The notes under the pieces were generated by a model that saw only the letters and a list, made by a program, of their open reading frames with translations, had not been told where the DNA came from and did no database searches. A program made the position numbers and the translations under genes. A DNA stretch of 64,000 nucleotides, taken from assembly GCA_037917685.1 (NCBI GenBank), contig JAVCBU010000006.1, positions 320,001-384,000 on the forward strand. Direction: 5' to 3'. This document shows positions 650 through 37,369 of the stretch, piece by piece; within the stretch, counting starts at the first letter, position 1; the number at the start of each line of letters is the position of its first letter. The stretch comes from Thermoproteota archaeon. Its GTDB lineage: Archaea > Korarchaeota > Korarchaeia > Korarchaeales > JAOZGB01.

Positions 650-937
650 ATGGTTGAAGAATTCCTATGTATGAACGCGCTGAAATACTGCGCCGAAGCG
701 AGAAAGCTCCAGCAGGAGGGAAAATATAAGCTTGCTGGTGAACTATGCATTAGAATCTCACAGCTGTGTAGGAAGAGGGGAGAAAACGCCAACATGGAGG
801 AGTGCATTCGAGAATCCAAACTATGCAGGAAGGCAGGTGAATTATTTATATCATCCGAAAATATCTCTGAAGCCCAGAAAATATGTCAGAAATCAGTAAA
901 ACTCTGTCCAAGAAGCAAGATTGGAATGTCAGGATAA
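650..937 (+). CDS. small Cys-rich helical-repeat (TPR/SNAP-like) hypothetical protein
   Basis: 95-aa ORF in a gap between genes; repeated AGEL motifs; 8 Cys; start may be ATG at 671. Confidence 0.5.
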   Translation: MVEEFLCMNALKYCAEARKLQQEGKYKLAGELCIRISQLCRKRGENANMEECIRESKLCRKAGELFISSENISEAQKICQKSVKLCPRSKIGMSG

Positions 938-1810
938 AACCCTTACAGATTCCCAAAACCTTGAGGTAAACGTAGCAACCCCCTCTCCCGGAGGATATAT
1001 CACCAACAAGGCAAACGCTCTACCAATCGTGAAGTCTTTCCAAAAGTAAACCCTACACTCACCCCTTCTCTTTCTAAGCAACGCATCCCTCACATAATAT
1101 TTCAAACCTCTGGACACAACATGAAACCCTCTAATATTCTTCTCCTCAGTCCATTCCTCAATAAATTTCCTCCCAACCATCTTTTCAGCTTCCCTAACCT
1201 TACGTTCCACGTCTTTAATCTTAATTTTCTCTGGGAAATGCCATCGGTAAAGTATAAAAAACTTTCTCCCACCCTTAAGTAGAGCTTTAGACTCTCCAAC
1301 CCGCAATTCTAGCTTAGAGACAACAAATCCCTTCGGTGTCTTAAACTCTAGGTTTAAAAGAGTCCAATATTCGTATTCTCCCCTCCAGTGGCACCTAAAC
1401 TTTTGTAGAATGTTGTTTAACGTCTCCTCAGCATCTTTAGGGCTCTGACTCCTATAGTAAACTAGAAAGTTAAGCCCTGATACATCGCAGTGCCAAATGC
1501 CACCCATGCCTTGAGCATCCTCCTCCTGAATCCTAAACTTCCCACACTTATGCCCCCTAATAGATGTAAAACCAGTCTTATATACATTAACAGTTTTCAA
1601 CTTTTTGGCCATAGCTTCGATGGAACGGTCGACATCAACAGTCCTACCAGGCTCCCATTTAACAATGAACCTCTCTCCAAACTCAATATCGCTTAGGGCT
1701 ACAATACCGCCACCCCGGCTAAAACCAAAACTTGAAATCTCCCAGTCCCTGCCCACCTCAACCTTAAAAACCCCCATCCCAAAGGGCTTACTCAAAAACC
1801 CCATACCCAT
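929..1810 (-). CDS. hypothetical protein, apparently two related alpha/beta halves
   Basis: 293-aa ORF; no recognised catalytic motif. Confidence 0.7.
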   Translation of the reverse strand: MGMGFLSKPFGMGVFKVEVGRDWEISSFGFSRGGGIVALSDIEFGERFIVKWEPGRTVDVDRSIEAMAKKLKTVNVYKTGFTSIRGHKCGKFRIQEEDAQGMGGIWHCDVSGLNFLVYYRSQSPKDAEETLNNILQKFRCHWRGEYEYWTLLNLEFKTPKGFVVSKLELRVGESKALLKGGRKFFILYRWHFPEKIKIKDVERKVREAEKMVGRKFIEEWTEEKNIRGFHVVSRGLKYYVRDALLRKRRGECRVYFWKDFTIGRAFALLVIYPPGEGVATFTSRFWESVRVLS

Positions 1811-1861
1811 TCTTATCCCCTATGAAACTTTATAAGCTCATTATGAGTAGCTATTCACAGA

Positions 1862-2485
1862 ATGACAGTGAATATTGCCGAACTGGAGAAACAGATAGAC
1901 ATGGATCTAACCCTAGGTAAAATCACCGAGGAAGAGTGGAAAAGGAAGATGGGTATAATTAAAAGCATTAAAAAACTTGATGAAGATTTAATCTACGGCA
2001 GGATAACAGAAGCCGAATATAAAAACAAGCGTGAAGCGCTAATTTCTCAACTCCAGCCACCCACGGCTGCCCCTACATACCAGCCTAAGCCTGAGACACC
2101 CCCTCCACCCCCGCTCTATACTAATATACAGAAAATCGTGTCAGAGCTTGAAATAGTGAAATCCAAGAGGAGAAAACTCTCTGATCTCCTCTTAAATAAG
2201 GAAATAAGCGAAAAAACCTTCAACAAGATAGATAACGAGCTGGAATCTGAGGAGAAGAAACTGGAGGAAAAACTGAAAAGTCTAAAATCTGAGATTGAAG
2301 AAAGAATAGAAAAGCTCTCATCCGAGCTGGAAGAACTAAAATTGCAGCTCGAAGAGGCACTAGCAAGGTGGAGAATAGGAGATATCACTGAGGATGAGTA
2401 TAACAGGAAGAAGTCGGAGCTGGAAGCAAGAAAAAACACGGTCGAGAACGAGCTGGAAACCTTGAAAAAGGCAGCGATAGACTAG
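1862..2485 (+). CDS. CdvA-like coiled-coil protein with tandem N-terminal SHOCT-like motifs and Pro-rich linker
   Basis: GKITEEEW and GRITEAEY motifs, PPPPP linker, then LSDLLLNKEISEKTF...coiled coil...ARWRIGDITEDEY as in the CdvA helical domain. Confidence 0.7.
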   Translation: MTVNIAELEKQIDMDLTLGKITEEEWKRKMGIIKSIKKLDEDLIYGRITEAEYKNKREALISQLQPPTAAPTYQPKPETPPPPPLYTNIQKIVSELEIVKSKRRKLSDLLLNKEISEKTFNKIDNELESEEKKLEEKLKSLKSEIEERIEKLSSELEELKLQLEEALARWRIGDITEDEYNRKKSELEARKNTVENELETLKKAAID

Positions 2486-2569
2486 CTCCCCCAGCCCCTT
2501 TATGTGCAAAATCCAAAACTCGACAGTACAAGGTAAATTTAAAAGACAGACAAGGTACAACATATCCAG

Positions 2570-4327
2570 ATGCCCAGTTTAGCAAAGCCTAAACAAAATA
2601 TCTATACAATAGGATACAGGTTCTTCAAACCTCTTGGAGAGCTGATAATGAAGCTCTACAAGGACCTACCAACAGATCTCGGCAAAGCAGATATGAGAGT
2701 ATACCCCCTAGCTTATGCATCAGCCGTCGCAATGCTAACCATAACCATGGCGGTCCTAATGGTTAGCATAAACCTAGTCCTCTACGCGGCTTTCAAAATA
2801 GTCTACCCCCTTATGATAGTCCTATGTATAATAATCCCAGTAATAACCTTCGCATTAGGATTGCTAGCCCCCGTCGTCTGGAAGTACAATAGGATAAAAT
2901 CTCTCGAGAATGAGACACCCTTCGCAGCAGCCTACATCTCTGTCATGTCCACAGGCGGGATAACACCCTTTAGAAGCATGAAAAGACTGAGCCAAGCCAA
3001 ACTACTGCCAAACCTGGCCAGAGTATCCAAGTACATAGTCTTCGATGTTTCATTGTTTGGAATAGACCCACTCTCAGCCATGGACAGAGCAGCCGAGAAT
3101 GTGCCGGCAAAAAGCTATTCCGAGCTAATAAAAGGATACGTTTCAACGGTTAGAACAGGAGGAGACTTCGTCCACTACCTGCTTCGGAAGACCGAGCTAA
3201 TGTTCAACGAGCGAATAGGACAACTAAGAATAATAGGGGAAAAGCTGGGTATGATGATGGAAGGATACATAGCGGTAACAGTACTCTTAGGCCTAGGGAT
3301 CTATGCCATATACATAACCAATGTAGCAATGCCAGTCCCTATGCCAATGTTCGGACAGGCGAGCTTCTTCCTGTTTACTTACATACTAACACCAATGATC
3401 TCGATTTTATTCTTATACCTTGGAGACATGATGCAACCATCCTATCCTGAAACTAACTGGAAAGTTTACAAGATATGGCTGGCGGGCCTAATACCTGGAA
3501 TAGTGGTAATCCTGTTATCAGCCATATTTCCAACCTTCCCGGTAAGAACCGCTGTAGAAAAACTTGTAATAGACATCCTAGGCTTAGGGCCTGGCACGGT
3601 TCTCCCAACTATCGTAGGATTATTGCTCATAATCTCAAGCATCCCGGGAGCCTGGGTAAGCATAAGATACGATAAAAGAAAGAGAGAAACGGAGAGAAAC
3701 CTGGCATTTTTCCTACGGGACCTCGTGGAGATAAGAAAGGCGGGATTACCACCTGAGAAGTGCATAGCAAACCTCAAAAATAGAGACTACGGTATCCTAT
3801 CACCACTGATAAAAAGGCTTTCAGCACAAATAGAATGGGGCATACCAATCCACAAAATTCTCCGTGATTTCAACAATTCAGTAAACAGCTGGCTTGCCAA
3901 AATGATGATGTTCCTCCTAGTAGACGCGATAGACATCGGTGGCGGAACCCCCCGCACGATGGAAGCAATGGCAAGCTACACCGAAATGATGAACGAAGTA
4001 GAAAATCAGAAGAGAGAACAGTTGAGACCACTCCTAATAGTACCATACATAGGAGCCCTAGTACTTGTAGTCTCAACGGTGATACTCCTAGGATTCATGA
4101 GAGGGGTTCTAGCCCTAGCAAGAATGGGAATAGCCTACGAATCTTTCCTTCAAATGTTCACAACACCCCTAGTGATAAACGTATACCTAATGGGCCTAGT
4201 ATCAGGAAAAGTAGGCGAAGAAAAAGTGTCAGCAGGAATAAAACACGCACTCCTACTAACCCTAATCTCAGTAGTAGCCCTGTGGATAACACCCTCAATA
4301 AGCATCACATTCGCACCAGTAGGATAA
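2570..4327 (+). CDS. type II/IV secretion system F-family membrane platform (PilC/FlaJ/TadC-like)
   Basis: Two T2SSF repeats (LENETPFAAAYISVMSTGGITP; LAFFLRDLVEIRKAGLPPE...IDIGGG) with multiple TM helices. Confidence 0.92.
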   Translation: MPSLAKPKQNIYTIGYRFFKPLGELIMKLYKDLPTDLGKADMRVYPLAYASAVAMLTITMAVLMVSINLVLYAAFKIVYPLMIVLCIIIPVITFALGLLAPVVWKYNRIKSLENETPFAAAYISVMSTGGITPFRSMKRLSQAKLLPNLARVSKYIVFDVSLFGIDPLSAMDRAAENVPAKSYSELIKGYVSTVRTGGDFVHYLLRKTELMFNERIGQLRIIGEKLGMMMEGYIAVTVLLGLGIYAIYITNVAMPVPMPMFGQASFFLFTYILTPMISILFLYLGDMMQPSYPETNWKVYKIWLAGLIPGIVVILLSAIFPTFPVRTAVEKLVIDILGLGPGTVLPTIVGLLLIISSIPGAWVSIRYDKRKRETERNLAFFLRDLVEIRKAGLPPEKCIANLKNRDYGILSPLIKRLSAQIEWGIPIHKILRDFNNSVNSWLAKMMMFLLVDAIDIGGGTPRTMEAMASYTEMMNEVENQKREQLRPLLIVPYIGALVLVVSTVILLGFMRGVLALARMGIAYESFLQMFTTPLVINVYLMGLVSGKVGEEKVSAGIKHALLLTLISVVALWITPSISITFAPVG

Positions 4328-4384
4328 CCAGACACACCCAAGCCTCAAAACCGAGAGCTTAAAAATCACATCAAGCCATTGAGC

Positions 4385-4984
4385 TTATAGAACTCTAAGT
4401 TTACTCTTAAGCCTAAGAGACAAAACAATAACCACAAACCCAACAATAACCAGTCCCGGAAGAATAAAACTAGTGATCAGGCTAGGCGGAGACCATCCTC
4501 CGGTAAAAGACAGTAATACAAGAGTATTAACGCCTGTCGAAAACATAAAGGTACCAAGGAACAACAACCAATTCGAACGCCGAACCATCTTTCGCTTATA
4601 ATTGGGATCAACCCTAAACTGCAAATAAGCCTTCCTCACAACTTCCTCAGGAACTCTAAGCCCTTCAAAACTCTTCAAAGCTTTCCTTGCAAACTCAACA
4701 GCCCCCCTGGCCTCCTCCATACTAGGCAAATACAAACTATGCAGACAATAATTCCTAAGCCTCCTATAATGATGTAACTCATCCCAAAAAGGAATCCTAA
4801 CCCCATGATCCCTCCCAAAAAACATCATATCAATTAAACCAGCCCTGTGAAGCTCCGGAATCCCGAAAGCCTCCCTAAGACCAATCTCTAAAGCCTTAAC
4901 TGACAAAATAACCGCAGCATCAAAAAGACCTGCCTTTAAAGCCTTATCAGCACGGTCCAAAAGCTCCCAACACCCACCGGGCAT
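4385..4984 (-). CDS. HEPN-domain protein with two C-terminal transmembrane helices
   Basis: FDAAVILSVKALE helix and RRLRNYCLH (RxxxxH) motif, followed by two hydrophobic segments and a basic tail. Confidence 0.72.
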   Translation of the reverse strand: MPGGCWELLDRADKALKAGLFDAAVILSVKALEIGLREAFGIPELHRAGLIDMMFFGRDHGVRIPFWDELHHYRRLRNYCLHSLYLPSMEEARGAVEFARKALKSFEGLRVPEEVVRKAYLQFRVDPNYKRKMVRRSNWLLFLGTFMFSTGVNTLVLLSFTGGWSPPSLITSFILPGLVIVGFVVIVLSLRLKSKLRVL

Positions 4985-4991
4985 ACAAACC

Positions 4992-5786
4992 CTACCTCCT
5001 CACCCGTTTCAAAAAGCCAAAACTAAATAAAAGTCTCCTCTTCGGCCTCACCACAATAGCCGGCGGCTTCACACCCATAATCCTAGCAGCCACACTCCTC
5101 AAAGCCAAAGCCGCAGGAGAATCAGGTTTAACCTTAGCCAAAACCTCAAGCCTAGCAGACGAAACTTTCATGGCAGGATCATGAGGGATGGCGCCCAAAA
5201 AAGGCATTTCCAGAATCCTCTCGAAACTCCGAACAACCTCAGGTCTAAGCAAACCCTGGTCTTCAACATCGTTCAAAACAAAACCCAAAGCCCGAGCCCT
5301 AACATTATCCCCTGTACCCTTAACAAACAAGGCAGCATCCAAGCTCCAAACATCAGGCTCTACAACGACTAGATACTCCCGGAAAGCGGACATAGCCCTA
5401 ACCACATTCCCCCCCAAACCCTGACCAGCATCCACAATAACATAATCAACACGGTCAGCAATAGAACCAAGCATCCTAACAAGATCATCAAAAAGAACAC
5501 CACCAGACCCCCGCCGGAAAGGCCTAACAGGAATAATTCCAAGCCTATCATGAATTCTCGTGGCATGAACAGCCTTCCACAGTGGAATACCCTCAGAAAC
5601 AACCCTCACCAAGTCAACCTCAACATCAGCAACCCCAAAAAGCCTCGACAAACAGGCAAACTCCAAATCACCATCAACCAACAAAACAACATTCCCAGCC
5701 TCAGCCAACAAAAAACCTAGGTTAGCACTAACAACAGTCTTACCAGTACCACCCTTCCCAGAAACCACCACAAAGCCACGCTTCAA
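4992..5786 (-). CDS. minD: MinD/ParA-family ATPase
   Basis: Deviant Walker A SGKGGTGKT, LLVDGDL, LGFVLN, IPHDP; C-terminal amphipathic RRLLFSFGFLKR; TTG start at 5786 with GAGG upstream. Confidence 0.85.
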   Translation of the reverse strand: MKRGFVVVSGKGGTGKTVVSANLGFLLAEAGNVVLLVDGDLEFACLSRLFGVADVEVDLVRVVSEGIPLWKAVHATRIHDRLGIIPVRPFRRGSGGVLFDDLVRMLGSIADRVDYVIVDAGQGLGGNVVRAMSAFREYLVVVEPDVWSLDAALFVKGTGDNVRARALGFVLNDVEDQGLLRPEVVRSFERILEMPFLGAIPHDPAMKVSSARLEVLAKVKPDSPAALALRSVAARIMGVKPPAIVVRPKRRLLFSFGFLKRVRR

Positions 5787-5872
5787 CCCCAACCTCAAAC
5801 ATACTAACAGACCGAAACATATAAAAATAATCCCAACCCCCCAAATAAATAGCAAGCCAACAACTAACAACA

Positions 5873-5902
5873 AACCAAAAAAGAAAGGGAAATAAAGGGA
5901 AG
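5873..5902 (-). terminator. oligo-pyrimidine terminator of pilin gene
   Basis: Minus strand reads TTCCCTTTATTTCCCTTTCTTTTTTGGTTTG immediately after the pilin stop. Confidence 0.55.
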
Positions 5903-5903
5903 T

Positions 5904-6341
5904 TTATGGGATAGCCACAGCCTTAGGATAATCCTTACCGCCTGCAGTATGCAGGGTAACTTCATATGTAACCCCGGATGACCAAGAGCCACCAGTTACA
6001 CTGGGCGGAATGTCACCATTGTAGATGTGTATAGTGACGCTAGCACCGCTAACCAGCGTTATAGGTAGCGTACCAGACAGATTCCCTCCACTTCTCACCG
6101 GGATTCCATTAATGAATACGTCAGTGATGGTGGCATCGGCGGACCCAGTATTCTTAACTCTTAGTGTAACTCTCTGGTTAGTTGAATCGTACCACGCAGC
6201 AGAGATTTCAAGCTTTTCAAATCTCGTAAAGATGCCGGCTATGCCAACGACCCAGTATGCGACCGCTATTGCTATTGCTATGGCGACTGCTACGATTATA
6301 ATGGTTGCTATTACCGGGGATATTCCCGCGTTTCTTCTCAT
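5904..6341 (-). CDS. archaeal type IV pilin (class III signal peptide)
   Basis: MRRNAG/ISPVIATIIIVAVAIAIAIAVAYW cleavage site and hydrophobic helix; beta-rich domain with VKNTG and VFING. Confidence 0.93.
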   Translation of the reverse strand: MRRNAGISPVIATIIIVAVAIAIAIAVAYWVVGIAGIFTRFEKLEISAAWYDSTNQRVTLRVKNTGSADATITDVFINGIPVRSGGNLSGTLPITLVSGASVTIHIYNGDIPPSVTGGSWSSGVTYEVTLHTAGGKDYPKAVAIP

Positions 6342-6371
6342 AACCTGATCATTTATTCTTGACTTTTCATA

Positions 6372-6387
6372 GAATTTAAATCTTTGT
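6372..6387 (-). promoter_or_regulatory. BRE/TATA promoter of pilin
   Basis: Minus strand CACAAAGATTTAAATTC about 35 nt upstream of the pilin ATG. Confidence 0.5.
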
Positions 6388-6614
6388 GATATTTTTGTTT
6401 GTTGTTGTTTTTTCTGGTAAATTTTTAAATATATGGCTATTTTCTAGGTATGTTTTTGATTTTTACATGATTTTATGTGTTTTTCAAGTTCATTCTTCCT
6501 TTTCGTGTTTTGAGTGGATTTTTAATGTTGTTAGATATGGTGGTTGTTTTCTTTTTAATATTATGGTTTTGACCTTGGCCTTTAGGTATGGTTTGGAGGT
6601 TAGATCCCCTCTCC

Positions 6615-6665
6615 TACATTGAGAGTTACATCTTCTAATATTTATTTGATGTAACTCTCAATGTA
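6615..6665. repeat. perfect 18-bp inverted repeat with 15-nt AT-rich spacer
   Basis: TACATTGAGAGTTACATC (6615-6632), TTCTAATATTTATTT, GATGTAACTCTCAATGTA (6648-6665). Confidence 0.95.
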
Positions 6666-6698
6666 AATACCCCCGTTCATTGGAGTGTGATGGTGCTT

Positions 6699-8297
6699 TT
6701 ACATTTTAATTGTTGTTTTAATCTTCCTTAAGTAGTATTCCCTTATCATTCTCCCTATTTCTCTGTAGTCTGTTACGTTTCTTTTGATCATTTCTTCTAT
6801 TAGCGCTTCTCTTTCTCTAATTTCGTTTATTATGTCTGGGACTGTTCTCGCTGTTTCTATGGCTATTTCTTTCAGTATCCTGCTTTTTGTTAGGTCTCCT
6901 ATGAACAGGTCCCTGCCTGCGTTCCACCAGAACACGGTGTTCTTCTGGAGGGTTGCGCCGTCATAGTCAATAATTTCATCTATTCTTTTTATCCTTCTAG
7001 CCATCCTTCCGTTAGGTAAGTTCACTCTTCCAAGTAGGATCGCTATTTTGATAAGGGGTATGTAAGCTGGTGCTATGTCCAGAGGTTTCTGTGTGAACCT
7101 CTTGATTGCTGCTTCGACACTGTCTGCGTGGAATGTTGTAAGTCCCCCGTGTCCTGTTGCTATTGCTTGTATTAGGGCGTATGCTTCTCTTCCTCTAATT
7201 TCTCCGACAATTATGTAGTCAGGTCGGTGTCTTAGGCTTGTCACTACTAGGTCGAATAGGTCTATTCCTCCTCCGGTTTCCTTGCTTACACCTAGCCCGT
7301 ATGCAGGTCTTGATATGAATTCTATCCAGTTTTCATGTGGTAGCCTTAGTTCCGCGGTTTCCTCTACTGTTATTATCTTTGCTTCAGGCCTTATCATACA
7401 TGATAGGGCATTTAGAAGTGTTGTTTTCCCAGCTGCTGTAGCCCCGATTATTAGTACAGCCTTTTTGTACTCCATGGCTATCCAGAGGTAGGCGGCCATT
7501 TCGCTTGTTAGAACTCCGAAGTTTATCAGGTCAACAATAGTGTAAGGTTTCTCTCTGAATTTTCTAATTGTGAATGTTCCACCTTTAGGGGTTATTTCAC
7601 GCCTGTAGCTTGCTGCAAGCCTGTGCTTTCCCTCGAGCATGACGTCTACTATGGGGAAGGCTGTTGAGATGTGTTTTCCAGCTCGATGGACGAGTTTTAC
7701 TATAAACTCGTCCAGGTATTCCTCGCTGTTGAAAATTATGTTTGTCTTCATGCTTTCATACTTTCTGTGCCAGATGTAAACTGGAACGCCGACTCCGTCG
7801 CACGATATGTCCTCGATGTTAGGATCCCTCATAAGTCCGTCGATCGGGCCGTAGCCTAGAAGGTTTCTTTTGATGTAGCACAGTATTTTAGGCCAGCTTA
7901 CCGTTTCTTTGAGTTTAATCTTATACTTTTTAGCTATCCTTGTAGCCTCTAGGGCGAGGTATTTCTCTCTGTCTTTTATCTCGTCAGGTGCCATTATTTC
8001 GCTTGACAGCATGTCGACTACAAGGTCGTATATCTCCTTCTCCTGCTTGTTCATTTTTTCCTCGATTACGAAATATCTTCTTTCCCCGTCAACAGGGTTC
8101 ATGGCTATGACAGCCTTGGAGAAAACCTTATATGTAGGGTATTCTTTCACTGTAGGAAACGGGTTAAGCTCTGGAGGGGCTGCTTCGAGCTCGGATGCTT
8201 CGTAAAGTTTATATGCTTCAATTATATCCCAGTCAGGGGGTAGTGGCTCTAGAGTGACTTCTTCAGGTTTTATTTCCCGTTCTAGTAATGACCACAT
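6699..8297 (-). CDS. type IV pilus/archaellum-family assembly ATPase (PilB/FlaI/VirB11)
   Basis: DPNIEDISCDG, FTIRKF, Walker A GATAAGKTT, EETAEL, RHRPDYIIVGEIRG, TGHGGLTTFHA. Confidence 0.95.
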   Translation of the reverse strand: MWSLLEREIKPEEVTLEPLPPDWDIIEAYKLYEASELEAAPPELNPFPTVKEYPTYKVFSKAVIAMNPVDGERRYFVIEEKMNKQEKEIYDLVVDMLSSEIMAPDEIKDREKYLALEATRIAKKYKIKLKETVSWPKILCYIKRNLLGYGPIDGLMRDPNIEDISCDGVGVPVYIWHRKYESMKTNIIFNSEEYLDEFIVKLVHRAGKHISTAFPIVDVMLEGKHRLAASYRREITPKGGTFTIRKFREKPYTIVDLINFGVLTSEMAAYLWIAMEYKKAVLIIGATAAGKTTLLNALSCMIRPEAKIITVEETAELRLPHENWIEFISRPAYGLGVSKETGGGIDLFDLVVTSLRHRPDYIIVGEIRGREAYALIQAIATGHGGLTTFHADSVEAAIKRFTQKPLDIAPAYIPLIKIAILLGRVNLPNGRMARRIKRIDEIIDYDGATLQKNTVFWWNAGRDLFIGDLTKSRILKEIAIETARTVPDIINEIREREALIEEMIKRNVTDYREIGRMIREYYLRKIKTTIKM

Positions 8298-8425
8298 ATC
8301 AACTATTATAGTATGGTGCTTACAATATTATAAATTAACATTGAAATCCTCTTATAAATTGTGAATTATCCTATGATTTCAAGTTAAAATCAAACATTTT
8401 ATATACAACTTAGGAGTTAGAACTA

Positions 8426-9304
8426 ATGATAATCTTGATTGAATTATCAAAACTGGAAGAAGAGCTGAGGGTTTTAGAAGATCTTTACAAATCGGGTCAG
8501 ATTTCAAGAGAAAAGTATATCAGTCGGATATCTGAAATTAAAGAGAGATTCGAGGCTATTAAAAGGAAGTACAGCTTGGAGAAGGGTGGAAAAGCCAAAG
8601 TGAAGCCTAGAATCTCACAAACAGAGTTGACCTATCTAAATATCATTAGAAAGTTCCCTGACATTTTAACACCGAAAATAGAGGGGTTCCTCCGAGTCTC
8701 ATTTAAGAAAGCCGCTGAGGTTTTCGGAGAGCAGGAAAGCGAAACGATGAGCACCCTTACCAGGCTGGAGTCGGCGGGTGTACTCAGAAAGGAGAGGATG
8801 TTATCTCTTTTGAAGTGCCCAAAATGTGGTAATGAGGGTCTGGTGCTGACCGTTAGGTGCCCTCACTGCGATAGCCCTAGCCTGCACAAAAGAATCATTC
8901 TGAAACACTTGCCATGCGGCCATGTGGACTTTACAGAAAACTATATGAGAGAAAGAGGGAGCCTGGTATGTCCTTCATGTTTTAGACCTATAGAGAACGA
9001 GTATGAGAAGCTAGGGATATTTGTGTGCGAAGAATGCGGGAGAGTATCCTCTCTTCCTCTCGTCAAAGGTTTCTGCACTGCTTGCCAAGCGGAAGTTGAT
9101 GTGAGAGACTCGGATATACTGCCTGTCTTTTCGTTCTCCATGCCATCCGAAATAGCTAAGCATGTTATGCCAGAGCTTTCAGCGTTTGAGTTTGAAAAGG
9201 AATTCACAGAAAGGATAGAGAAGCATCTCAGAGTTGCAAGGCAGGAGAGTGATAAGTCTACCGAGATAAGGAAGCTTTTCAAAGAGATTCTGGAAAAGAA
9301 GTAG
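8426..9304 (+). CDS. multi-zinc-ribbon TackOD1-like protein with N-terminal SHOCT-like motif
   Basis: wHTH-like LTRLESAGVL followed by CPKC, CPHC, HLPCGH, CPSC, CEEC, CTAC; N-terminal LYKSGQISREKY. Confidence 0.75.
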   Translation: MIILIELSKLEEELRVLEDLYKSGQISREKYISRISEIKERFEAIKRKYSLEKGGKAKVKPRISQTELTYLNIIRKFPDILTPKIEGFLRVSFKKAAEVFGEQESETMSTLTRLESAGVLRKERMLSLLKCPKCGNEGLVLTVRCPHCDSPSLHKRIILKHLPCGHVDFTENYMRERGSLVCPSCFRPIENEYEKLGIFVCEECGRVSSLPLVKGFCTACQAEVDVRDSDILPVFSFSMPSEIAKHVMPELSAFEFEKEFTERIEKHLRVARQESDKSTEIRKLFKEILEKK

Positions 9305-18650: not shown

Positions 18651-19187
18651 TTACCGCAGAGGCTTAAACAATGAGAGGAGATAAACAGCTTCCCTCCTCC
18701 TCTCACTTGTAACCCTGACAGCAACGAAACCCTCCCCTGGCTGGCCGTAAACCATTACCCAACCATCAGGGGCCAATATGACAGCCGGAAAGCCAAGCAG
18801 ATCCTCCTCACCATCAACAAGCACGAAAACTCTTACACCATCAATCGAAGACTCAATAGCAGACTTAACAGCATGCCAAGCCTTAACCGTTATGCATCCA
18901 GGCGGATTCTCAGTACTAAGAACCCTATAGCCCTCCGGGGGCTTCAAAGGGTACGGCATCCTCTCCACAAACCCGTCCCCAATAATAACTGCGGGCCTCA
19001 GCCCTGCAAGAACGAAGCTGGAGCCAACAAAATCCCCAACAGCCACGACATTCACTCCTTTGAAAATATGAGGATCTAAACTCCTATATAACATCCCCCT
19101 AGGCTTCCTAACAATCCTCGCAACCTCCTCTGTTACCCTAAGATCCACCAAAAGGTTCAAATTCTCATCCAGAAAACCCAACCACAC
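18651..19187 (-). CDS. GTP-dependent dephospho-CoA kinase (DUF359)
   Basis: VAVGD, NPPGCIT, VDGEEDL, YGQPGEG. Confidence 0.88.
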   Translation of the reverse strand: MWLGFLDENLNLLVDLRVTEEVARIVRKPRGMLYRSLDPHIFKGVNVVAVGDFVGSSFVLAGLRPAVIIGDGFVERMPYPLKPPEGYRVLSTENPPGCITVKAWHAVKSAIESSIDGVRVFVLVDGEEDLLGFPAVILAPDGWVMVYGQPGEGFVAVRVTSERRREAVYLLSLFKPLR

Positions 19188-19457: not shown

Positions 19458-19898
19458 TTGAGCCTCGTTGAGGTAGCGGTCTGCAAGCTCGTTGAAAGTC
19501 TAGGTGACAGAGTTGTTGCAGTAGCCCTATTTGGCAGTAGGGCTAGAGGTGAATCCTCTGAGCATAGTGATTATGACTTCCTAGTCATTGTTAGGGATAT
19601 GGATGAATGTGACAGGAGATTTAAGATTTATGATCCGCTGTACAAAGTTTTAAAGCGGGATATCACAGTGATTGATATTTCTGAAGACAAGATTTTCAGG
19701 GAGAATCTTGAGATAGACTCCTTCCTTTTAAATATAGCTTATGATGGTGTTATCCTGTACGATCCATCCGGTAAGCTTAAAGAACTCTTTAATAGGATCA
19801 AGAAGGCTATTAAAGGTAAACTAGTCAGGTACAAGACAAAAGATGGGAAATATGGGTGGAAGCCCTTGGATGGGTTTTTAAAGCCAATAGAGGTGTAA
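19458..19898 (+). CDS. minimal nucleotidyltransferase (MNT antitoxin-like)
   Basis: LFGSRARG...SDYDFLVI, GVILYD. Confidence 0.9.
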   Translation: MSLVEVAVCKLVESLGDRVVAVALFGSRARGESSEHSDYDFLVIVRDMDECDRRFKIYDPLYKVLKRDITVIDISEDKIFRENLEIDSFLLNIAYDGVILYDPSGKLKELFNRIKKAIKGKLVRYKTKDGKYGWKPLDGFLKPIEV

Positions 19899-19902
19899 AA
19901 GT

Positions 19903-20338
19903 TTGAAGATAAATCCTGAGAGTGAGGTGAAGTATAGGATTAAGCTTGCAGAGGGGTATGCGGAGAGAGCCAGGAAATTTCTCAGGCAGGGCTTCTACAA
20001 AGAATGTGTCGAAGCAGCCCAGTTGTCAATAGAGAACTCGGCGAAGGCCATCGTAGCCCTTAGAAGAATGCCGAGCTGGAGCCATGATCCGTCTCAAGAG
20101 CTCTACGAGATAATACCTGAGCTACCAGAAAAATGTAGGAAGCTGGCAGAGAGACTTGCCCATTTATCTCACGCAGTTGCTCCTGAGCATGGCACCTCAA
20201 CTTATGGAAGACCCAGTGAGTCTAGCCCCCTGGGAGATTTACGATGAGGAAGATGCCAGAAACATTCTAAAAAAGGTTGAAGAAGCCCTTAAGCTTATGA
20301 AACAAATACTTCAAACATTGCATAAGCATGCCCCCTGA
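19903..20338 (+). pseudogene. HEPN-domain protein, frameshifted
   Basis: AQLSIENSAKA, WSHD, HGTSTYG in one frame; natural C-terminus LAPWEIYDEEDARNILKKVEEAL in another; shift near 20218-20223. Confidence 0.8.
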
Positions 20339-33976: not shown

Positions 33977-36900
33977 TTAACTCTCTTCTGCTGGTTTGAA
34001 ATACCCTGCTCTTGGCATATATAGGTTTCCGGTCTCCCTTAGCTCGTCGATAAGTTCTTTAACCATCTTTTCCGTGTATCCTATTCTCTTCACCTTCAAC
34101 TCGTCCATTACAGCTTTTATAAGCTCCCCTCTCGAGACACCCTCATCCTTTCCTTTGGAAAGCTCACGGGCCTTCTCCATTATTATATTGGATACAAGCA
34201 TCTTTGAATGTCTATGGCCGTCTAACATGTGTATATCGAAGCCCCTGATGCTCACATCATAAGCTACTGTTCTAAGCATATAATTCATAAGCTCTATGGC
34301 AGCCTCTGCATCCTCGATATCCACTGTTTCCTTGAGCAGCATTTTCGCATGTGCCTCCGCCAGCCTTATAAGAGCCTCAAGCTGCCTGGGAGTTATAGGT
34401 ATCGGAGTTTCGCCTTCATACATAGCTTCGCTCTGGGGAGTTTGCATTCTCAATGTCAGATAGTACTCTTTTATTCTCTCTACAGCCCTTCGACTGACCT
34501 TAGGCCTTATCCTCCTTGCGAATGCTATGTATTTCTTCAAGGTTTCAGAGTCCATGATAGGCTTCGCCATAGGGTTTACACCTATATGTGTGTCAACTAT
34601 GTGTTCAGCTATAGCCCTATCCCTCTCGATCTCCGGTCTGTCCTCCATAACAAAGATAAGGTCAAACCTAGAGAGTATGGTGGGCGGTAAGTTTATATTC
34701 TCAGCTACAGACTTTGTTGAAATCCACCTTCCACCCTTAGGATTGGCAGCTGCTATTATAGTTGTCCTCGCATTTAGGGTGGATATTATCCCGGCCTTAG
34801 CCACCGAAATAGTCTGTTGCTCCATAGCCTCATGTATCGCAACACGGTCGTTCTCCCCCATCTTATCAAACTCATCGATGCATGCGATTCCCCCGTCAGC
34901 TATGACAAGCGCGCCAGCCTCAAGACTCCACCCCCCTGTAAACGGGTCCCTAACAACCGCCGCCGTCAACCCCGCTGCCGTAGCTCCCTTACCTGTGGTA
35001 TACAGCCCTCTGGGTGCAAGCTGTGAGACATACTTCAGTATCTGACTGTTATGTACGAATACCCCGTTCGCTATGAAGTTGTGAGTTTTTTCAACTTGGA
35101 TATCGTAAACCCATTCATCACTGCTTTCCTCGCAGATAGACACAACTTCATCCCAGTAGATGTCTGTGTTAATTTGAGTTTCTAGCTCTTTAAGACTCCA
35201 TGGGATGTCAAACGGATTTGTAACATTTTCCTTAAGCGTTCTAACTATGCTGCGAAGGGTTTCCCTGGGGACCGGTCTCTTCCCAGATTCATATCTCTGC
35301 AGTGAAGTTTTCGGGATATTAAACTCATCCATCGAAATAGCCAAGCTTTGTCTCGCATCTCTTATTAGCCCGCCGACTCCTGGGATCACATCTCTCGGGC
35401 TGGTGTTTAGGGAAGCCCTACGGCTTATCCTTCTCAAGGTTTTAAGTCTAGCCTCGTATGCTGTGCCTACCTCTTCAATAAACTTTTTAATGTATCGTCC
35501 TCTTATCTTCAGCTTTATATAGTTTCCTTCGTCTTCAACGACAGCTATGATCCTATGCGACAGGAGAAGGTGTCTTATCTGTTCAATGAAGTCCCTGCTT
35601 GCACTAACTATGTGCATCTGGCCTCTCCTTACTGAAAGCTTTCCAGCAGCGTCGAAGAACGTCCTAAGGAAAGCTCTTGTCTCGTCGAGACTGCCGGACA
35701 TTACAAATGGTGGAACTCTCTTCTTACCCTTGTATATTCCACACTGGTCTAGTAAGACCTCTATGTCCGGACTATAAATCGATACCTCCACTTTAAGCCC
35801 TTCATAGTTACCATCGATTTTAACATTACGTAGGTTTCTTTTCGCAAGATATAAAATACTATTAACAAGGCTTTTCGGGCATGAAATCACTGCCCCCTTA
35901 AGTCCCCCCTTCTTTGACGGCTTTCCAGCCGCGATAAGATATCCAGCGATCGCTGCAAGCCCTACATTTTTACCATTTTTTCCACGGGGGATATAATAGG
36001 GTGTGGCGATAAACATCCTAGGTTTCAGCTCGGATGCTCTAATCCTTGTTATCTTACCATTTTCACAGGTGAAGAAGGGATGAGTCGGAGTTACCCTTAT
36101 GATCCTCCCAGTCTTGGTTTTTACCTTCAGAATTTTCCCGGGCGATCTTCTTTTCAACACCACAGTCGACAAGGCATCGCTAACCTTTCCCTCCGCATTC
36201 ATGGTTTTTAACATCAGTTTACCCCTGGCAGCATGACCATCATCTAGGGGTATCCTGTCCTTCGAGAGGAGATCGTTAACAATTTCGTCGACTCTCACCA
36301 GGCTTCCATCACTCATTACAATCATGGATTCTCCAGTGACACATTTAGCAGTGCCGGGATCCCCTACCAACAGTATGTTGATTTCACCCTTGACCCTTGT
36401 CCCATCTTCAAATACTTTAGCGTTTCCACCGAACAAGGCAAGGGCTATCGCCTTTTTGATGTAGCCCCAGTTATGTATTGAGGGAGCTATCGATCTAATT
36501 ATTGCCTCCTTAAGCCTTTCTCTGTCTCTAGCAAGCTCCATAAACCTTCTTTCATCCTCCTCCGTTACCTCTATTCTCTCGTATTCCCTCGTCTCATGAA
36601 TTATATTGTTAACCTTAATGTAGCTTGTATATAGTGTACCTCTTCCCCTAAATCGTTTCCCGCTTTCTCTAAGAAGGTCTAGGATTCCTATTACGGTAAC
36701 CCTGTCGCCGGGCTTAACCTCGTCAACGATGTCGTCAAGCAAGACACAGTCTACGTATCTAGGCATAGCTCCTGGAGAGAGTTCTTCAGGCTTCTCCTGA
36801 ATCCTTATTACCTGCCAGTTTACAAACTTGCTTAGGTTCTCATCAAGTTCAAACTTGTTATTGTTGCATTCGTCACATACCACTGGCTTCTTCAGCCCGG

Positions 36901-37369
36901 GGCCCGCTTGCTTCACTCGCACTACATTTCCACAATCCGGATTTGTGCATCTGAAAGCTGCTTCTTCGAGAAGCCTGAGTACAGGGGTGCATCGCGTTAC
37001 AATTCCCGAGAGACATATTAGTTTACCGGGTAAGATGAGGTTCAAATCTTTAAAGGAGTGTATCTTTGGAGGATCTACAATCCTCACATGAAACTTCTTA
37101 TTAACGGAATACTCGTAGTCTATCAGGGCAACTATCCTACTTAGAGCCTTGCTCGCTTCCTCAACGAATCTCTGAGGTTCACATATGAAAACCTCAGAAA
37201 GCTCTGGGTCATAGCTCCTAATATGCTGGTAGGATACCTCTAGGCTTCTTTTTTCATCTCTAATCATGTCTCCAACTTTCTCGAAGTATAATAGCTTTCC
37301 CTTCTCATCCCTAAATGACCTAATAAACTCTTCAAACTCACTTGATATTTGTTTGAGCGCGCTCTCCAA
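33977..37369 (-). CDS. mcm: MCM replicative helicase, intein-containing
   Basis: Zn finger, IQEKPE, GDPGTAK/SQ split Walker A, IDEFDKM, HEAMEQQT, SRFD. Confidence 0.96.
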   Translation of the reverse strand: MESALKQISSEFEEFIRSFRDEKGKLLYFEKVGDMIRDEKRSLEVSYQHIRSYDPELSEVFICEPQRFVEEASKALSRIVALIDYEYSVNKKFHVRIVDPPKIHSFKDLNLILPGKLICLSGIVTRCTPVLRLLEEAAFRCTNPDCGNVVRVKQAGPGLKKPVVCDECNNNKFELDENLSKFVNWQVIRIQEKPEELSPGAMPRYVDCVLLDDIVDEVKPGDRVTVIGILDLLRESGKRFRGRGTLYTSYIKVNNIIHETREYERIEVTEEDERRFMELARDRERLKEAIIRSIAPSIHNWGYIKKAIALALFGGNAKVFEDGTRVKGEINILLVGDPGTAKCVTGESMIVMSDGSLVRVDEIVNDLLSKDRIPLDDGHAARGKLMLKTMNAEGKVSDALSTVVLKRRSPGKILKVKTKTGRIIRVTPTHPFFTCENGKITRIRASELKPRMFIATPYYIPRGKNGKNVGLAAIAGYLIAAGKPSKKGGLKGAVISCPKSLVNSILYLAKRNLRNVKIDGNYEGLKVEVSIYSPDIEVLLDQCGIYKGKKRVPPFVMSGSLDETRAFLRTFFDAAGKLSVRRGQMHIVSASRDFIEQIRHLLLSHRIIAVVEDEGNYIKLKIRGRYIKKFIEEVGTAYEARLKTLRRISRRASLNTSPRDVIPGVGGLIRDARQSLAISMDEFNIPKTSLQRYESGKRPVPRETLRSIVRTLKENVTNPFDIPWSLKELETQINTDIYWDEVVSICEESSDEWVYDIQVEKTHNFIANGVFVHNSQILKYVSQLAPRGLYTTGKGATAAGLTAAVVRDPFTGGWSLEAGALVIADGGIACIDEFDKMGENDRVAIHEAMEQQTISVAKAGIISTLNARTTIIAAANPKGGRWISTKSVAENINLPPTILSRFDLIFVMEDRPEIERDRAIAEHIVDTHIGVNPMAKPIMDSETLKKYIAFARRIRPKVSRRAVERIKEYYLTLRMQTPQSEAMYEGETPIPITPRQLEALIRLAEAHAKMLLKETVDIEDAEAAIELMNYMLRTVAYDVSIRGFDIHMLDGHRHSKMLVSNIIMEKARELSKGKDEGVSRGELIKAVMDELKVKRIGYTEKMVKELIDELRETGNLYMPRAGYFKPAEES
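35048..36343 (-). mobile_element. 432-aa intein in MCM Walker A, with degenerate LAGLIDADG endonuclease and HTH insert
   Basis: Begins C-VTGES after GDPGTAK; block B TPTHPF; block F WVYDIQV..THNF; ends FVHN before Ser. Confidence 0.93.

What the first reader, a model, noticed from the sequence alone, without database searches (positions are those of the whole stretch)
4385..4984. Membrane-tethered HEPN RNase-like protein cotranscribed with MinD inside a pilus locus
Seen: a HEPN fold with intact RNYCLH (RxxxxH), two C-terminal TM helices, only 7 nt after the minD stop, and no adjacent MNT antitoxin. Known: RxxxxH HEPN domains are dimerisation-activated RNases in toxin and abortive-infection systems, and many archaeal viruses adsorb to type IV pili. 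Inference: either a pilus-linked antiviral sensor/effector activated by membrane clustering, or a membrane-localised RNase controlled by MinD.
Basis: partly seen in the sequence, partly recalled or inferred. Interest (0 to 1): 0.75.

Follow-up and report, generated by a model that had tools for sequence, protein, structure and literature searches.

The report
Membrane-anchored HEPN protein beside pilus genes
A small archaeal gene encodes a probable RNA-cutting (HEPN) domain fastened to the inner face of the cell membrane and co-transcribed with a MinD-type positioning ATPase inside a type IV pilus gene cluster; it belongs to a rare, uncharacterised family whose biological role is still open.

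Summary
ORF 4385-4984(-) encodes 199 aa and starts 7 nt after the stop of a MinD-like gene. It has two C-terminal hydrophobic helices and no adjacent MNT gene. The window protein itself gets no significant Pfam hit. It belongs to a tiny family: 5 relatives among 1.84 billion representatives, and 7 sequences in all. Of these, 2 of 7 pass the Pfam HEPN cut-off and 3 of 7 match it below cut-off. R77-N78-x-C80-x-H82 and E33-x3-R37 are invariant in 7 of 7. The AlphaFold model (pLDDT 85.5) finds HEPN structures first in the PDB, though with weak E-values. The best reading is an archaeal member of the predicted class of membrane-associated HEPN RNases (Anantharaman 2013). Pilin adjacency is conserved in 2 of 4 contexts. 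MinD adjacency is seen in 1 of 4, plus one inferred contig. The antiviral-sensor and MinD-control ideas remain untested. A conserved strand-composition anomaly covers the operon and is unexplained. Verdict: a new variant of a known kind, of moderate interest.

The parts
4385..4984 (-). HEPN-TM gene, 199 aa: cytoplasmic N-terminal HEPN domain, juxtamembrane helix and a C-terminal two-helix membrane hairpin
   Evidence: ORF; 7-member family; AF2 model with pLDDT 85.5; Foldseek HEPN hits
4661..4975 (-). HEPN domain, about residues 4-108 (helices 4-17, 21-40, 50-59, 67-82, 89-107)
   Evidence: Model secondary structure. Relatives align to Pfam HEPN profile positions 6-115 of 117. hhalign to a classical HEPN spans 5-104 (weak, E 0.045).
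4874..4888 (-). E33-x3-R37, the second HEPN hallmark motif Ex3[KR]
   Evidence: E33 and R37 invariant in 7 of 7; motif definition from PMC3710099 passages
4739..4756 (-). R77-N78-Y-C80-L-H82, an Rx4H motif with a polar residue after R and an invariant Cys
   Evidence: R77, N78, C80 and H82 invariant in 7 of 7; codons read
4505..4573 (-). TM helix 1, about residues 138-160, preceded by basic KRKMVRRSN
   Evidence: Hydropathy peak 140-158; model helix 127-160
4415..4483 (-). TM helix 2, about residues 168-190, followed by basic RLKSKLRVL; the short loop GGWSPPS faces outward (inferred N-in/C-in hairpin)
   Evidence: Hydropathy peak 169-187; model helix 168-195; topology inferred from the positive-inside rule
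4992..5786 (-). MinD/ParA-family ATPase, 264 aa from TTG 5786 (the ORF is open to 5873), with a deviant Walker A and a C-terminal amphipathic membrane-targeting-like tail
   Evidence: NCBIfam minD_arch E 1.8e-42, 145.2 bits, below cut-off 201.75; CbiA/ParA Pfam hits; homologs start at MKRGF...
4995..5000 (-). AGGAGG Shine-Dalgarno-like element inside the end of minD, 11-16 nt before the HEPN-TM ATG; suggests translational coupling
   Evidence: Sequence; inference
5819..5827 (-). TATA-like TTTTTATAT about 37 nt upstream of the TTG 5786 start; candidate promoter of a bicistronic minD-HEPN-TM operon
   Evidence: Sequence; inference from recalled archaeal promoter geometry
5877..5882 (-). Oligo-T run 22 nt after the pilin stop; candidate archaeal terminator separating the pilin from minD
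   Evidence: Sequence; inference
4361..4365 (-). Oligo-T run about 20 nt after the HEPN-TM stop; candidate operon terminator
   Evidence: Sequence; inference
5904..6341 (-). Type IV pilin (class III signal peptide), UpsA-like
   Evidence: NCBIfam UpsA E 1.5e-07 and Pfam Pilin_N E 0.0013, both below cut-off; 55% identical to the pilin next to the HEPN-TM homolog in L001
6699..8297 (-). Type IV pilus assembly ATPase (FlaI/PilB family)
   Evidence: T2SSE E 5.5e-32; FlaI model E 8.7e-106, below cut-off
2570..4327 (+). TadC/UpsF-like pilus platform membrane protein, convergent with HEPN-TM
   Evidence: T2SSF E 2.2e-22; UpsF E 1.9e-25, below cut-off

Best explanation
The gene encodes an inner-membrane-anchored HEPN protein. 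Its first ~110 residues form a cytoplasmic HEPN four-helix bundle that keeps both superfamily hallmarks: E33x3R37, and R77-N-x-C-x-H82 with a polar residue after R. A conserved juxtamembrane helix (K118, A119 and F123 are invariant) and a C-terminal two-helix hairpin hold the domain at the cytoplasmic face of the membrane. Most likely it is a metal-independent endoribonuclease that becomes active when two HEPN domains pair face-to-face. It would then act on RNAs close to the membrane. That makes it an archaeal, Zn-ribbon-less counterpart of the 'membrane-associated HEPN' proteins predicted in bacteria for stimulus-dependent RNA degradation. It is the second gene of a probable bicistronic operon with a MinD/ParA-type ATPase that carries its own amphipathic membrane-targeting tail. 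The operon sits in a type IV pilus locus. Shown here: the gene, its family, the conserved motifs, the predicted fold, the TM hairpin, the operon geometry, and conserved adjacency to an orthologous pilin in one other genome. Inferred: RNase activity, dimer activation, topology, and any link to pilus function.
For: Family: 5 relatives at E<=0.001 among 1,835,955,588 representatives; 7 sequences after a profile search. Motifs: E33, R37, R77, N78, C80 and H82 are invariant in 7 of 7 at 31-89% identity. Pfam HEPN PF05168: P0006 scores 30.8 bits and P0007 31.2 bits against a cut-off of 22, covering profile positions 6-115 of 117. P0003, P0004 and P0005 score 14-16 bits over the same span. Five of 7 also touch Hypoth_Ymh, and 2 of 7 touch DUF4145; both are listed as HEPN families in PMC3710099 (passages). 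Structure: the AF2 model built from the 7-row alignment has mean pLDDT 85.5. The 9 best Foldseek PDB matches are HEPN proteins (1wol, 2hsb, 1o3u, 1ufb, 2q00) or Csm6 chains, with probability 0.87-1.00 and TM normalised to target 0.55-0.66 for the single-domain ones. Membrane anchor: two hydrophobic segments in 6 of 7 members. Operon: 7-nt gap and AGGAGG. Context: in L001 the homolog (47% overall, 55% in the best segment) lies between two pilin genes, one of them 55% identical to the window pilin, and next to a class III signal peptidase. Precedent: three bacterial TM-HEPN groups are described, one of them with an N-terminal HEPN followed by a pair of TM helices (PMC3710099 section 15, read whole).
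Against: The window protein and its 89% relative get no Pfam HEPN match at E<=1. Membership therefore rests on relatives and on a predicted structure. Foldseek found 0 matches at E<=0.001; the best is E=0.16. Sequence searches of the PDB found nothing meaningful. No RNase activity is shown. Csx28 shows that a membrane-bound HEPN-like protein can work as a pore with an inactive nuclease interface (preprint passages). Context is not conserved across the family. In L002 and L003 the gene sits between an HD-domain gene and an AlaX-like gene, with no pilus or MinD genes within the DNA held. No PADLOC or NCBIfam family matches. The alignment behind the model has only 7 rows.
Confidence: 0.6

Rival explanations
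1. Pilus-linked antiviral (abortive-infection-like) effector. The tethered HEPN RNase would be kept inactive as dispersed monomers. It would be switched on by clustering when a virus engages or enters at the pilus, shutting down host or viral RNA.
For: The intact, invariant catalytic-type motif is typical of toxin and Abi HEPN families (PMC3710099 passages). There is no cognate antitoxin next to it, so another control such as membrane tethering is needed. Pilin adjacency is seen in 2 of 4 contexts. An AbiEi/AbiEii-like pair lies about 5 kb away in L001. That archaeal viruses use type IV pili as receptors is recalled knowledge, not checked here.
Against: PADLOC finds 0 families for the protein. 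There is no match in phage or plasmid collections. The window is housekeeping chromosome without a defence island: 1 MNT-HEPN pair 14.5 kb away, and no cas genes among the ORFs scanned. Conserved synteny with an orthologous pilin at about 50% identity looks like vertical inheritance, not the patchy mobility of defence genes. L002 and L003 have no pilus context.
Confidence: 0.15
2. MinD partner or cargo, the first reader's second option in a broader form. The HEPN-TM protein would be the membrane-bound partner of the co-transcribed MinD/ParA ATPase. MinD would either position it, and with it the pilus machinery, or regulate it. The analogy is ParA/MinD ATPases encoded with a downstream partner gene.
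For: The 7-nt gap with an internal AGGAGG suggests coupled translation. Both genes share an extreme codon-position-3 G+T bias, 0.86 and 0.83, against 0.30-0.77 for the other 54 window ORFs. This MinD belongs to a small subfamily: 3 relatives at 94, 62 and 46% identity, after which scores fall to about 30%. Its 46% relative (P0010) and the 45% HEPN-TM relative (P0004, partial) are both labelled Candidatus Baldrarchaeia, and both come from a single contig of 2623 bp. That suggests the pair recurs; it is an inference, and adjacency was not verified. MinD-like ATPases in archaeal pilus loci are documented (PMC4858521 and PMC13705601 passages). A co-operonic gene downstream of minD2 exists in Haloferax (PMC11588486 passages).
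Against: No MinD-like gene lies within the DNA held around 3 of 3 fetched homologs (tblastn). The invariant catalytic-type residues are not explained by a pure adaptor role. The Haloferax downstream gene showed no phenotype.
Confidence: 0.12
3. Non-catalytic membrane protein. The HEPN-like bundle would serve as an oligomerisation or ligand-binding module of a small membrane pore or scaffold, as in Csx28, or as an accessory structural subunit of this pilus type.
For: Csx28 combines a TM helix with a four-helix HEPN-like bundle and forms an octameric pore with face-to-back contacts (preprint passages). The family has further invariant residues outside the catalytic motif (W67, D52, K118, A119, F123, G144, F148). 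Some of these lie in or next to the membrane part.
Against: The domain order is the reverse of Csx28, and no Cas13b is present. The family is absent from pilus loci in 2 of 4 contexts.
Confidence: 0.08

Closest known systems
Bacterial membrane-associated HEPN proteins predicted by Anantharaman et al. 2013 (PMC3710099, section 15), especially the group with an N-terminal HEPN, a pair of TM helices and a C-terminal Zn-ribbon
   Same: A cytoplasmic HEPN domain with the catalytic motif, followed by a pair of TM helices. The proposed logic is the same: RNA processing at the inner face of the membrane, possibly in response to a stimulus.
   Different: This family is archaeal and has no Zn-ribbon; the protein ends 9 residues after TM2. 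Its closest profile is PF05168. It has pilus and MinD neighbours. Homology to that bacterial group was not tested. Only a weak Atlas lead points to a Planctomycetota cluster (score 0.77-0.85).
HEPN toxins of MNT-HEPN (HepT/MntA-type) toxin-antitoxin pairs, Pfam PF05168
   Same: This is the best-matching sequence profile and fold. It has Rx4H with a polar residue after R, and Ex3[KR].
   Different: No adjacent MNT in 0 of 4 contexts. This protein carries a membrane hairpin, whereas those toxins are soluble proteins of about 110-140 aa. A classical pair exists elsewhere in the window, at 19458-20338.
Csx28, the Cas13b accessory membrane protein
   Same: A small protein of about 200 aa that joins a TM segment to a HEPN-like four-helix bundle on the cytoplasmic side.
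   Different: Csx28 has an N-terminal single TM helix, a divergent motif, an octameric pore and a Cas13b dependence. Here the hairpin is C-terminal, the motif is canonical and invariant, and there are no cas genes.
Ire1 / RNase L KEN domains and C6orf70 (eukaryotic membrane-tethered HEPN RNases)
   Same: Works-like analogy only: a HEPN-type RNase held at a membrane. For Ire1, the RNase is activated by self-association (recalled; the membrane localisation is stated in PMC3710099 passages).
   Different: No kinase or lumenal sensor domain, no detectable sequence relationship, and a different domain of life.
FleN/MinD-family ATPases (arCOG00589) of archaeal type IV pilus loci; TadZ/CpaE of bacterial Tad pili (recalled)
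   Same: The upstream gene is a MinD/ParA ATPase inside a pilus locus, as described for several archaeal T4P subsystems.
   Different: This MinD forms a small separate subfamily. The word HEPN does not occur in the main text of either survey. Their supplementary tables were not read.

Membership tests
HEPN superfamily | Up-down four-helix bundle fold | tested here: met
   The AF2 model has pLDDT 85.5. The Foldseek PDB top 9 are all HEPN or Csm6 chains with probability 0.87-1.00, although the best E-value is 0.16 and 0 matches reach E<=0.001.
HEPN superfamily | Rx4-6H motif with a polar residue (N/D/H) after R | tested here: met
   R77-N78-x-C80-x-H82 is invariant in 7 of 7. Motif definition is from PMC3710099 passages.
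HEPN superfamily | Second conserved acidic residue in an Ex3[KR] motif | tested here: met
   E33 and R37 are invariant in 7 of 7.
HEPN superfamily | Match to a curated HEPN profile (Pfam PF05168) above the gathering score | tested here: inconclusive
   The window protein has no hit at E<=1; its best is Hypoth_Ymh at E 0.11. Two of 7 relatives pass (30.8 and 31.2 bits against 22), and 3 of 7 match below cut-off.
HEPN superfamily | Metal-independent RNase activity dependent on R and H | not testable with these tools
   Needs biochemistry.
MNT-HEPN toxin-antitoxin module | Adjacent minimal nucleotidyltransferase gene | tested here: not met
   None next to the gene in the window, L001, L002 or L003. 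The nearest window MNT is 14.5 kb away and has its own HEPN.
Membrane-associated HEPN, group 3 of PMC3710099 | N-terminal HEPN followed by a pair of TM helices | tested here: met
Membrane-associated HEPN, group 3 of PMC3710099 | C-terminal Zn-ribbon after the TM pair | tested here: not met
   The protein ends 9 residues after TM2 and has only 2 Cys (C5, C80).
Csx28 | N-terminal TM helix plus a divergent HEPN motif, encoded beside cas13b | tested here: not met
   The domain order is reversed and the motif is canonical. No Cas domain was found among the 56 window ORFs scanned.
Known anti-phage defence systems (PADLOC-DB 2.0) | Match to any defence-protein model | tested here: not met
   0 families at E<=1 for the HEPN-TM protein.
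MinD/ParA ATPase (neighbour gene) | Deviant Walker A (KGGxGK[ST]) and a profile match | tested here: met
   S38-G-K-G-G-x-G-K-T46 is invariant in 8 of 8 aligned. CbiA scores 55.7 bits against 25.4. The equivalog-level minD_arch model scores 145.2 against cut-off 201.75, so that level is not met.

The most novel reading that the evidence does not exclude
The minD-HEPN-TM pair is an archaeal surface-surveillance module that works like Ire1/RIDD. A HEPN RNase tethered under the membrane would be positioned at the pilus base by its own MinD ATPase. It would be switched on by clustering when the pilus is perturbed, for example by virus docking or by assembly stress. It would then cut membrane-proximal transcripts, either pilus mRNAs or incoming viral RNA. 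The conserved strand-composition anomaly over the operon and the genes convergent with it would then reflect an unusual transcriptional regime, such as read-through antisense transcription into the pilus genes, that belongs to the same control circuit.
Probability: 0.1. Interest if true: 0.8.

Novelty: new variant of a known kind. Interest (0 to 1): 0.45.

Why it matters
Membrane-tethered HEPN RNases have been predicted in bacteria since 2013 but remain essentially uncharacterised. The one well-studied small membrane HEPN-like protein, Csx28, turned out to be a pore. This family is a compact archaeal version that keeps every catalytic hallmark. In two genomes it is wired to type IV pilin genes, and in at least one to a dedicated MinD ATPase. 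If it is an active RNase, it would be a tractable model for two questions: how membrane anchoring restrains a potentially toxic nuclease without an antitoxin, and whether archaea couple RNA decay to surface structures. If it is inactive, it would be a second example of HEPN exaptation at the membrane. The family is rare, so its ecological weight is small.

Tried and rejected
- **MinD + HEPN-TM complex prediction:** no verdict (score 0.00, mark 0.32). This is neither for nor against binding.
- **PDB by sequence:** the family profile and P0007 gave only chance-level hits, all with E>0.4. The one HEPN entry, 1o3u, came at E 1.6.
- **BFVD viral fold library:** 0 matches at E<=0.001.
- **tblastn against phages and plasmids:** no match, so there is no support for a mobile-element origin.
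- **NCBIfam and PADLOC:** nothing for the HEPN-TM protein.
- **ESM Atlas:** scores 0.75-0.85, which are leads only. They point to DUF4145 and HEPN clusters, a Planctomycetota cluster, and a 78-member archaeal cluster of 225-aa proteins.
- **The listing of cluster members:** the service was off. The P0004/P0010 adjacency and the accession numbers therefore stayed unchecked.
- **The missing antitoxin as the MNT at 19458-19898:** rejected. That MNT is followed 4 nt later by its own HEPN ORF.
- **The 29-residue hydrophobic N-terminus of the MinD ORF (from TTG 5873) as a TM anchor:** rejected. Homologs start at the equivalent of TTG 5786, and a TATA-like box lies inside the extension.
- **Codon bias as avoidance of the RNase's own cleavage site:** no 2- or 3-mer is specifically absent from the operon mRNA beyond the general A/C depletion.
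- **P0005 STING_TM hit:** 18.2 bits against a cut-off of 28.1, taken as hydrophobic noise.
- **Closed collections:** Contexts of the 89% relative (P0002), of P0005 and of the MinD relatives P0008 and P0009 could not be seen.

Full report
**The observation**

The minus strand carries a 199-aa ORF at 4385-4984. It starts 7 nt after the TAG (4994-4992) of a MinD-like ORF, and an AGGAGG lies at 5000-4995. Upstream on the same strand are a type IV pilin (5904-6341) and a FlaI/PilB-type ATPase (6699-8297). A TadC/UpsF-like platform gene (2570-4327, + strand) converges on the ORF.

The protein has one Rx4H motif, R77-N-Y-C-L-H82. It has two hydrophobic segments, with peaks at 140-158 and 169-187, flanked by basic stretches.

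The motif alone is not beyond chance. It appears in 7437 of 20000 shuffles of the protein; the stricter R[NDH]x3H appears in 659 of 20000.

**Is it a HEPN domain?**

The window protein itself gets no Pfam family at E<=0.1. Its best hit at E<=10 is Hypoth_Ymh at E 0.11. NCBIfam and PADLOC give nothing.

An exhaustive phmmer run over 1.84 billion representatives found only 5 relatives at E<=0.001: 89, 46, 45, 33 and 39% identity, lengths 162-218 aa. A profile search added one more, so the family alignment A2 has 7 sequences.

Scanning each member against Pfam gave these results:
- P0006 (30.8 bits) and P0007 (31.2 bits) pass the HEPN PF05168 cut-off of 22 bits over profile positions 6-115 of 117.
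- P0003, P0004 and P0005 match the same span at 14-16 bits.
- The window protein and P0002 do not match.

In A2, 27 of 223 columns are invariant. They include R77, N78, C80 and H82, and also E33 and R37. These are the two hallmarks of catalytic HEPN domains as defined by Anantharaman et al. 2013: Rx4-6H with a polar residue after R, and Ex3[KR] (PMC3710099, passages).

A single-sequence AlphaFold model was poor (pLDDT 64.1). With the 7-row alignment it reached pLDDT 85.5. Its helices are 4-17, 21-40, 50-59, 67-82, 89-107 and 113-123, plus two long C-terminal helices at 127-160 and 168-195.

The nine best Foldseek PDB matches are HEPN proteins or Csm6 chains: 1wol, 5fsh, 2hsb, 1ufb, 1o3u, 2q00, 8jbc and 8jbb. 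Probabilities are 0.87-1.00, and TM normalised to target is 0.55-0.66 for the single-domain entries. HepT/MntA-type toxins appear further down the list. That 1ufb and 2q00 are HEPN proteins is my recollection, not a call result. The E-values are weak (best 0.16; none at or below 0.001). Part of the reason is that one third of the query is the membrane hairpin.

A pairwise hhalign to a classical HEPN found in L003 spans residues 5-104 and puts R77 on that protein's motif arginine, but only at E 0.045.

I conclude that the HEPN assignment is sound at the family level, although the window protein alone would not have been called.

**Membrane anchor and topology**

Six of 7 members have two hydrophobic segments after the HEPN domain. 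The seventh (P0004) is a partial protein with one. The basic residues before TM1 and after TM2, and the short GGWSPPS loop, suggest an N-in/C-in hairpin with the HEPN domain in the cytoplasm. This is inferred from the positive-inside rule.

A juxtamembrane helix (113-123) carries invariant K118, A119 and F123.

**The neighbour and the operon**

The upstream gene is a MinD/ParA ATPase. CbiA scores 55.7 bits and minD_arch gives E 1.8e-42, though below its equivalog cut-off. Homologs begin at the position of TTG 5786, so the hydrophobic 29-residue extension of the ORF is probably not translated.

The C-terminus is a basic amphipathic tail of the MinD membrane-targeting type; it aligns with similar tails of other archaeal MinDs.

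Three sequence features suggest a bicistronic minD-HEPN-TM unit separate from the pilin (sequence; inference):
- a TATA-like TTTTTATAT at 5827-5819;
- an oligo-T run at 5882-5877, after the pilin stop;
- another oligo-T run at 4365-4361, after the HEPN-TM stop.

This MinD forms a small subfamily. Its relatives are at 94, 62 and 46% identity, after which scores fall to generic MinDs at about 30%.

**Contexts elsewhere**

One scan of species-representative genomes gave three loci.

*L001 (Thermoproteota MAG; 47% overall, 55% in the best segment).* The gene lies between two pilin genes. One of them is 55% identical to the window pilin. It is also next to a class III signal peptidase and an Lrp/AsnC regulator. 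There is no MinD within the 20.6 kb held.

*L002 and L003 (38% identity).* The gene follows an HD-domain gene and converges on an AlaX-like gene. TmcA and ASCH genes lie nearby, and there are no pilus or MinD genes.

In summary:

| Neighbour | Contexts out of 4 |
|---|---|
| Pilin | 2 |
| MinD | 1 |
| MNT | 0 |

One further pairing is likely. The HEPN-TM relative P0004 (45%, partial) and the MinD relative P0010 (46%) are both labelled Candidatus Baldrarchaeia, and each comes from a single contig of 2623 bp.

The window as a whole is ordinary chromosome. It carries MCM with an intein, a Hel308-like helicase, a proteasome subunit, molybdopterin genes and ABC transporters. It has one classical MNT-HEPN pair at 19458-20338 and no cas genes.

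**An unexplained composition anomaly**

The operon is the strongest compositional outlier in the window. The + strand G+T fraction is 0.24-0.34 over 4200-6000, against a window mean of 0.488 (sd 0.05). It flips to 0.57-0.67 over 6200-8200.

G+T at codon position 3:

| Gene | G+T at position 3 |
|---|---|
| MinD | 0.86 |
| HEPN-TM | 0.83 |
| Pilin | 0.48 |
| ATPase | 0.32 |
| Convergent TadC gene | 0.30 |
| All other 54 window ORFs (includes the three above) | 0.30-0.77 |

The L001 homolog shows the same pattern: 0.80, with 0.27-0.30 in the three genes convergent with it. L002 and L003 do not (0.49-0.50).

The bias therefore survives about 50% protein divergence, and it is continuous at the DNA-strand level across convergent genes. 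Foreign origin finds no support. A cleavage-site-avoidance test found no specifically missing k-mer. Local transcription- or replication-linked asymmetry remains possible. I leave it open.

**How it most likely works**

Shown here: a conserved, membrane-anchored protein with a HEPN domain keeping all catalytic hallmarks, co-transcribed with a membrane-binding MinD ATPase, and next to an orthologous pilin in two genomes.

Inferred: it is an endoribonuclease whose active site forms when two HEPN domains pair (the general HEPN rule; see the Csx28 preprint passages, and PMC3710099). Tethering would confine it to RNAs near the membrane and could control pairing.

This is the logic proposed in 2013 for three bacterial groups of TM-linked HEPN proteins. 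One of those groups has the same order, HEPN then two TM helices, followed by a Zn-ribbon that is missing here (PMC3710099 section 15, read whole).

My confidence estimates are 0.6 for the core reading, about 0.15 for an antiviral role, about 0.12 for a MinD-partner role and about 0.08 for a non-catalytic, Csx28-like role.

**Novelty**

MinD-like ATPases in archaeal pilus loci are documented (PMC4858521 and PMC13705601, passages). The word HEPN does not occur in the main text of either paper (same calls). Full-text searches combining HEPN with pili, archaea, MinD or membrane terms turned up no description of such a family. Supplementary tables were not read.

I rate it a new variant of a known kind. 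It is of moderate interest because the family is tiny and its function is untested.

Noticed in passing
window 800-8300; L001 9800-13800: There is a sharp local switch of strand composition. The + strand G+T fraction is 0.24-0.34 over 4200-6000 and 0.57-0.67 over 6200-8200, with the switch at the pilin gene and the AT-rich intergenic region 6342-6698. Codon-position-3 G+T is 0.83-0.86 in minD and HEPN-TM, against 0.30-0.32 in the TadC and ATPase genes. A similar step and bias occur at the homologous locus in L001, but not in L002 or L003.
   Followed up: partly
window 19458-20338: This is a classical MNT-HEPN pair: MNT at 19458-19898(+), followed 4 nt later by a PF05168 HEPN ORF at 19903-20247. 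That ORF matches only profile positions 2-84 of 117. The remainder seems to continue in another frame (20156-20338), so the HEPN gene may be frameshifted.
   Followed up: partly
window 6615-6665: A perfect 18-nt inverted repeat (6615-6632 / 6648-6665, 15-nt spacer) lies 34 nt downstream of the pilus ATPase stop, inside the AT-rich region upstream of the pilin gene. It could be a terminator hairpin or a regulator binding site.
   Followed up: no
window 33977-37369: The MCM helicase gene is interrupted by an intein with a LAGLIDADG homing-endonuclease domain.
   Followed up: no
window 8426-9304 and 1862-2485: Two genes flank the pilus locus. One is a TackOD1 zinc-ribbon protein, divergent from the ATPase. 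The other is a coiled-coil protein with CdvA-like and SHOCT-like repeats, directly upstream of the TadC-like gene. Both are possible accessory or regulatory components of this pilus system.
   Followed up: no
window 5787-5873: The MinD ORF can be read from TTG 5873, which adds a 29-residue hydrophobic N-terminus. Homologs lack this extension and a TATA-like box lies inside it, so annotation pipelines may mis-call the start.
   Followed up: yes
L003 624-1249; L001 15489-17271: L003 carries a classical small HEPN gene (PF05168, 26.5 bits) with an overlapping 97-aa upstream ORF. L001 carries an HTH protein plus an AbiEii nucleotidyltransferase pair about 5 kb from the HEPN-TM homolog.
   Followed up: no
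window 18651-19187: The DUF359 gene is the only other ORF in the window with a strongly G+T-biased third codon position (0.77). The bias is therefore not confined to the pilus locus.
   Followed up: no
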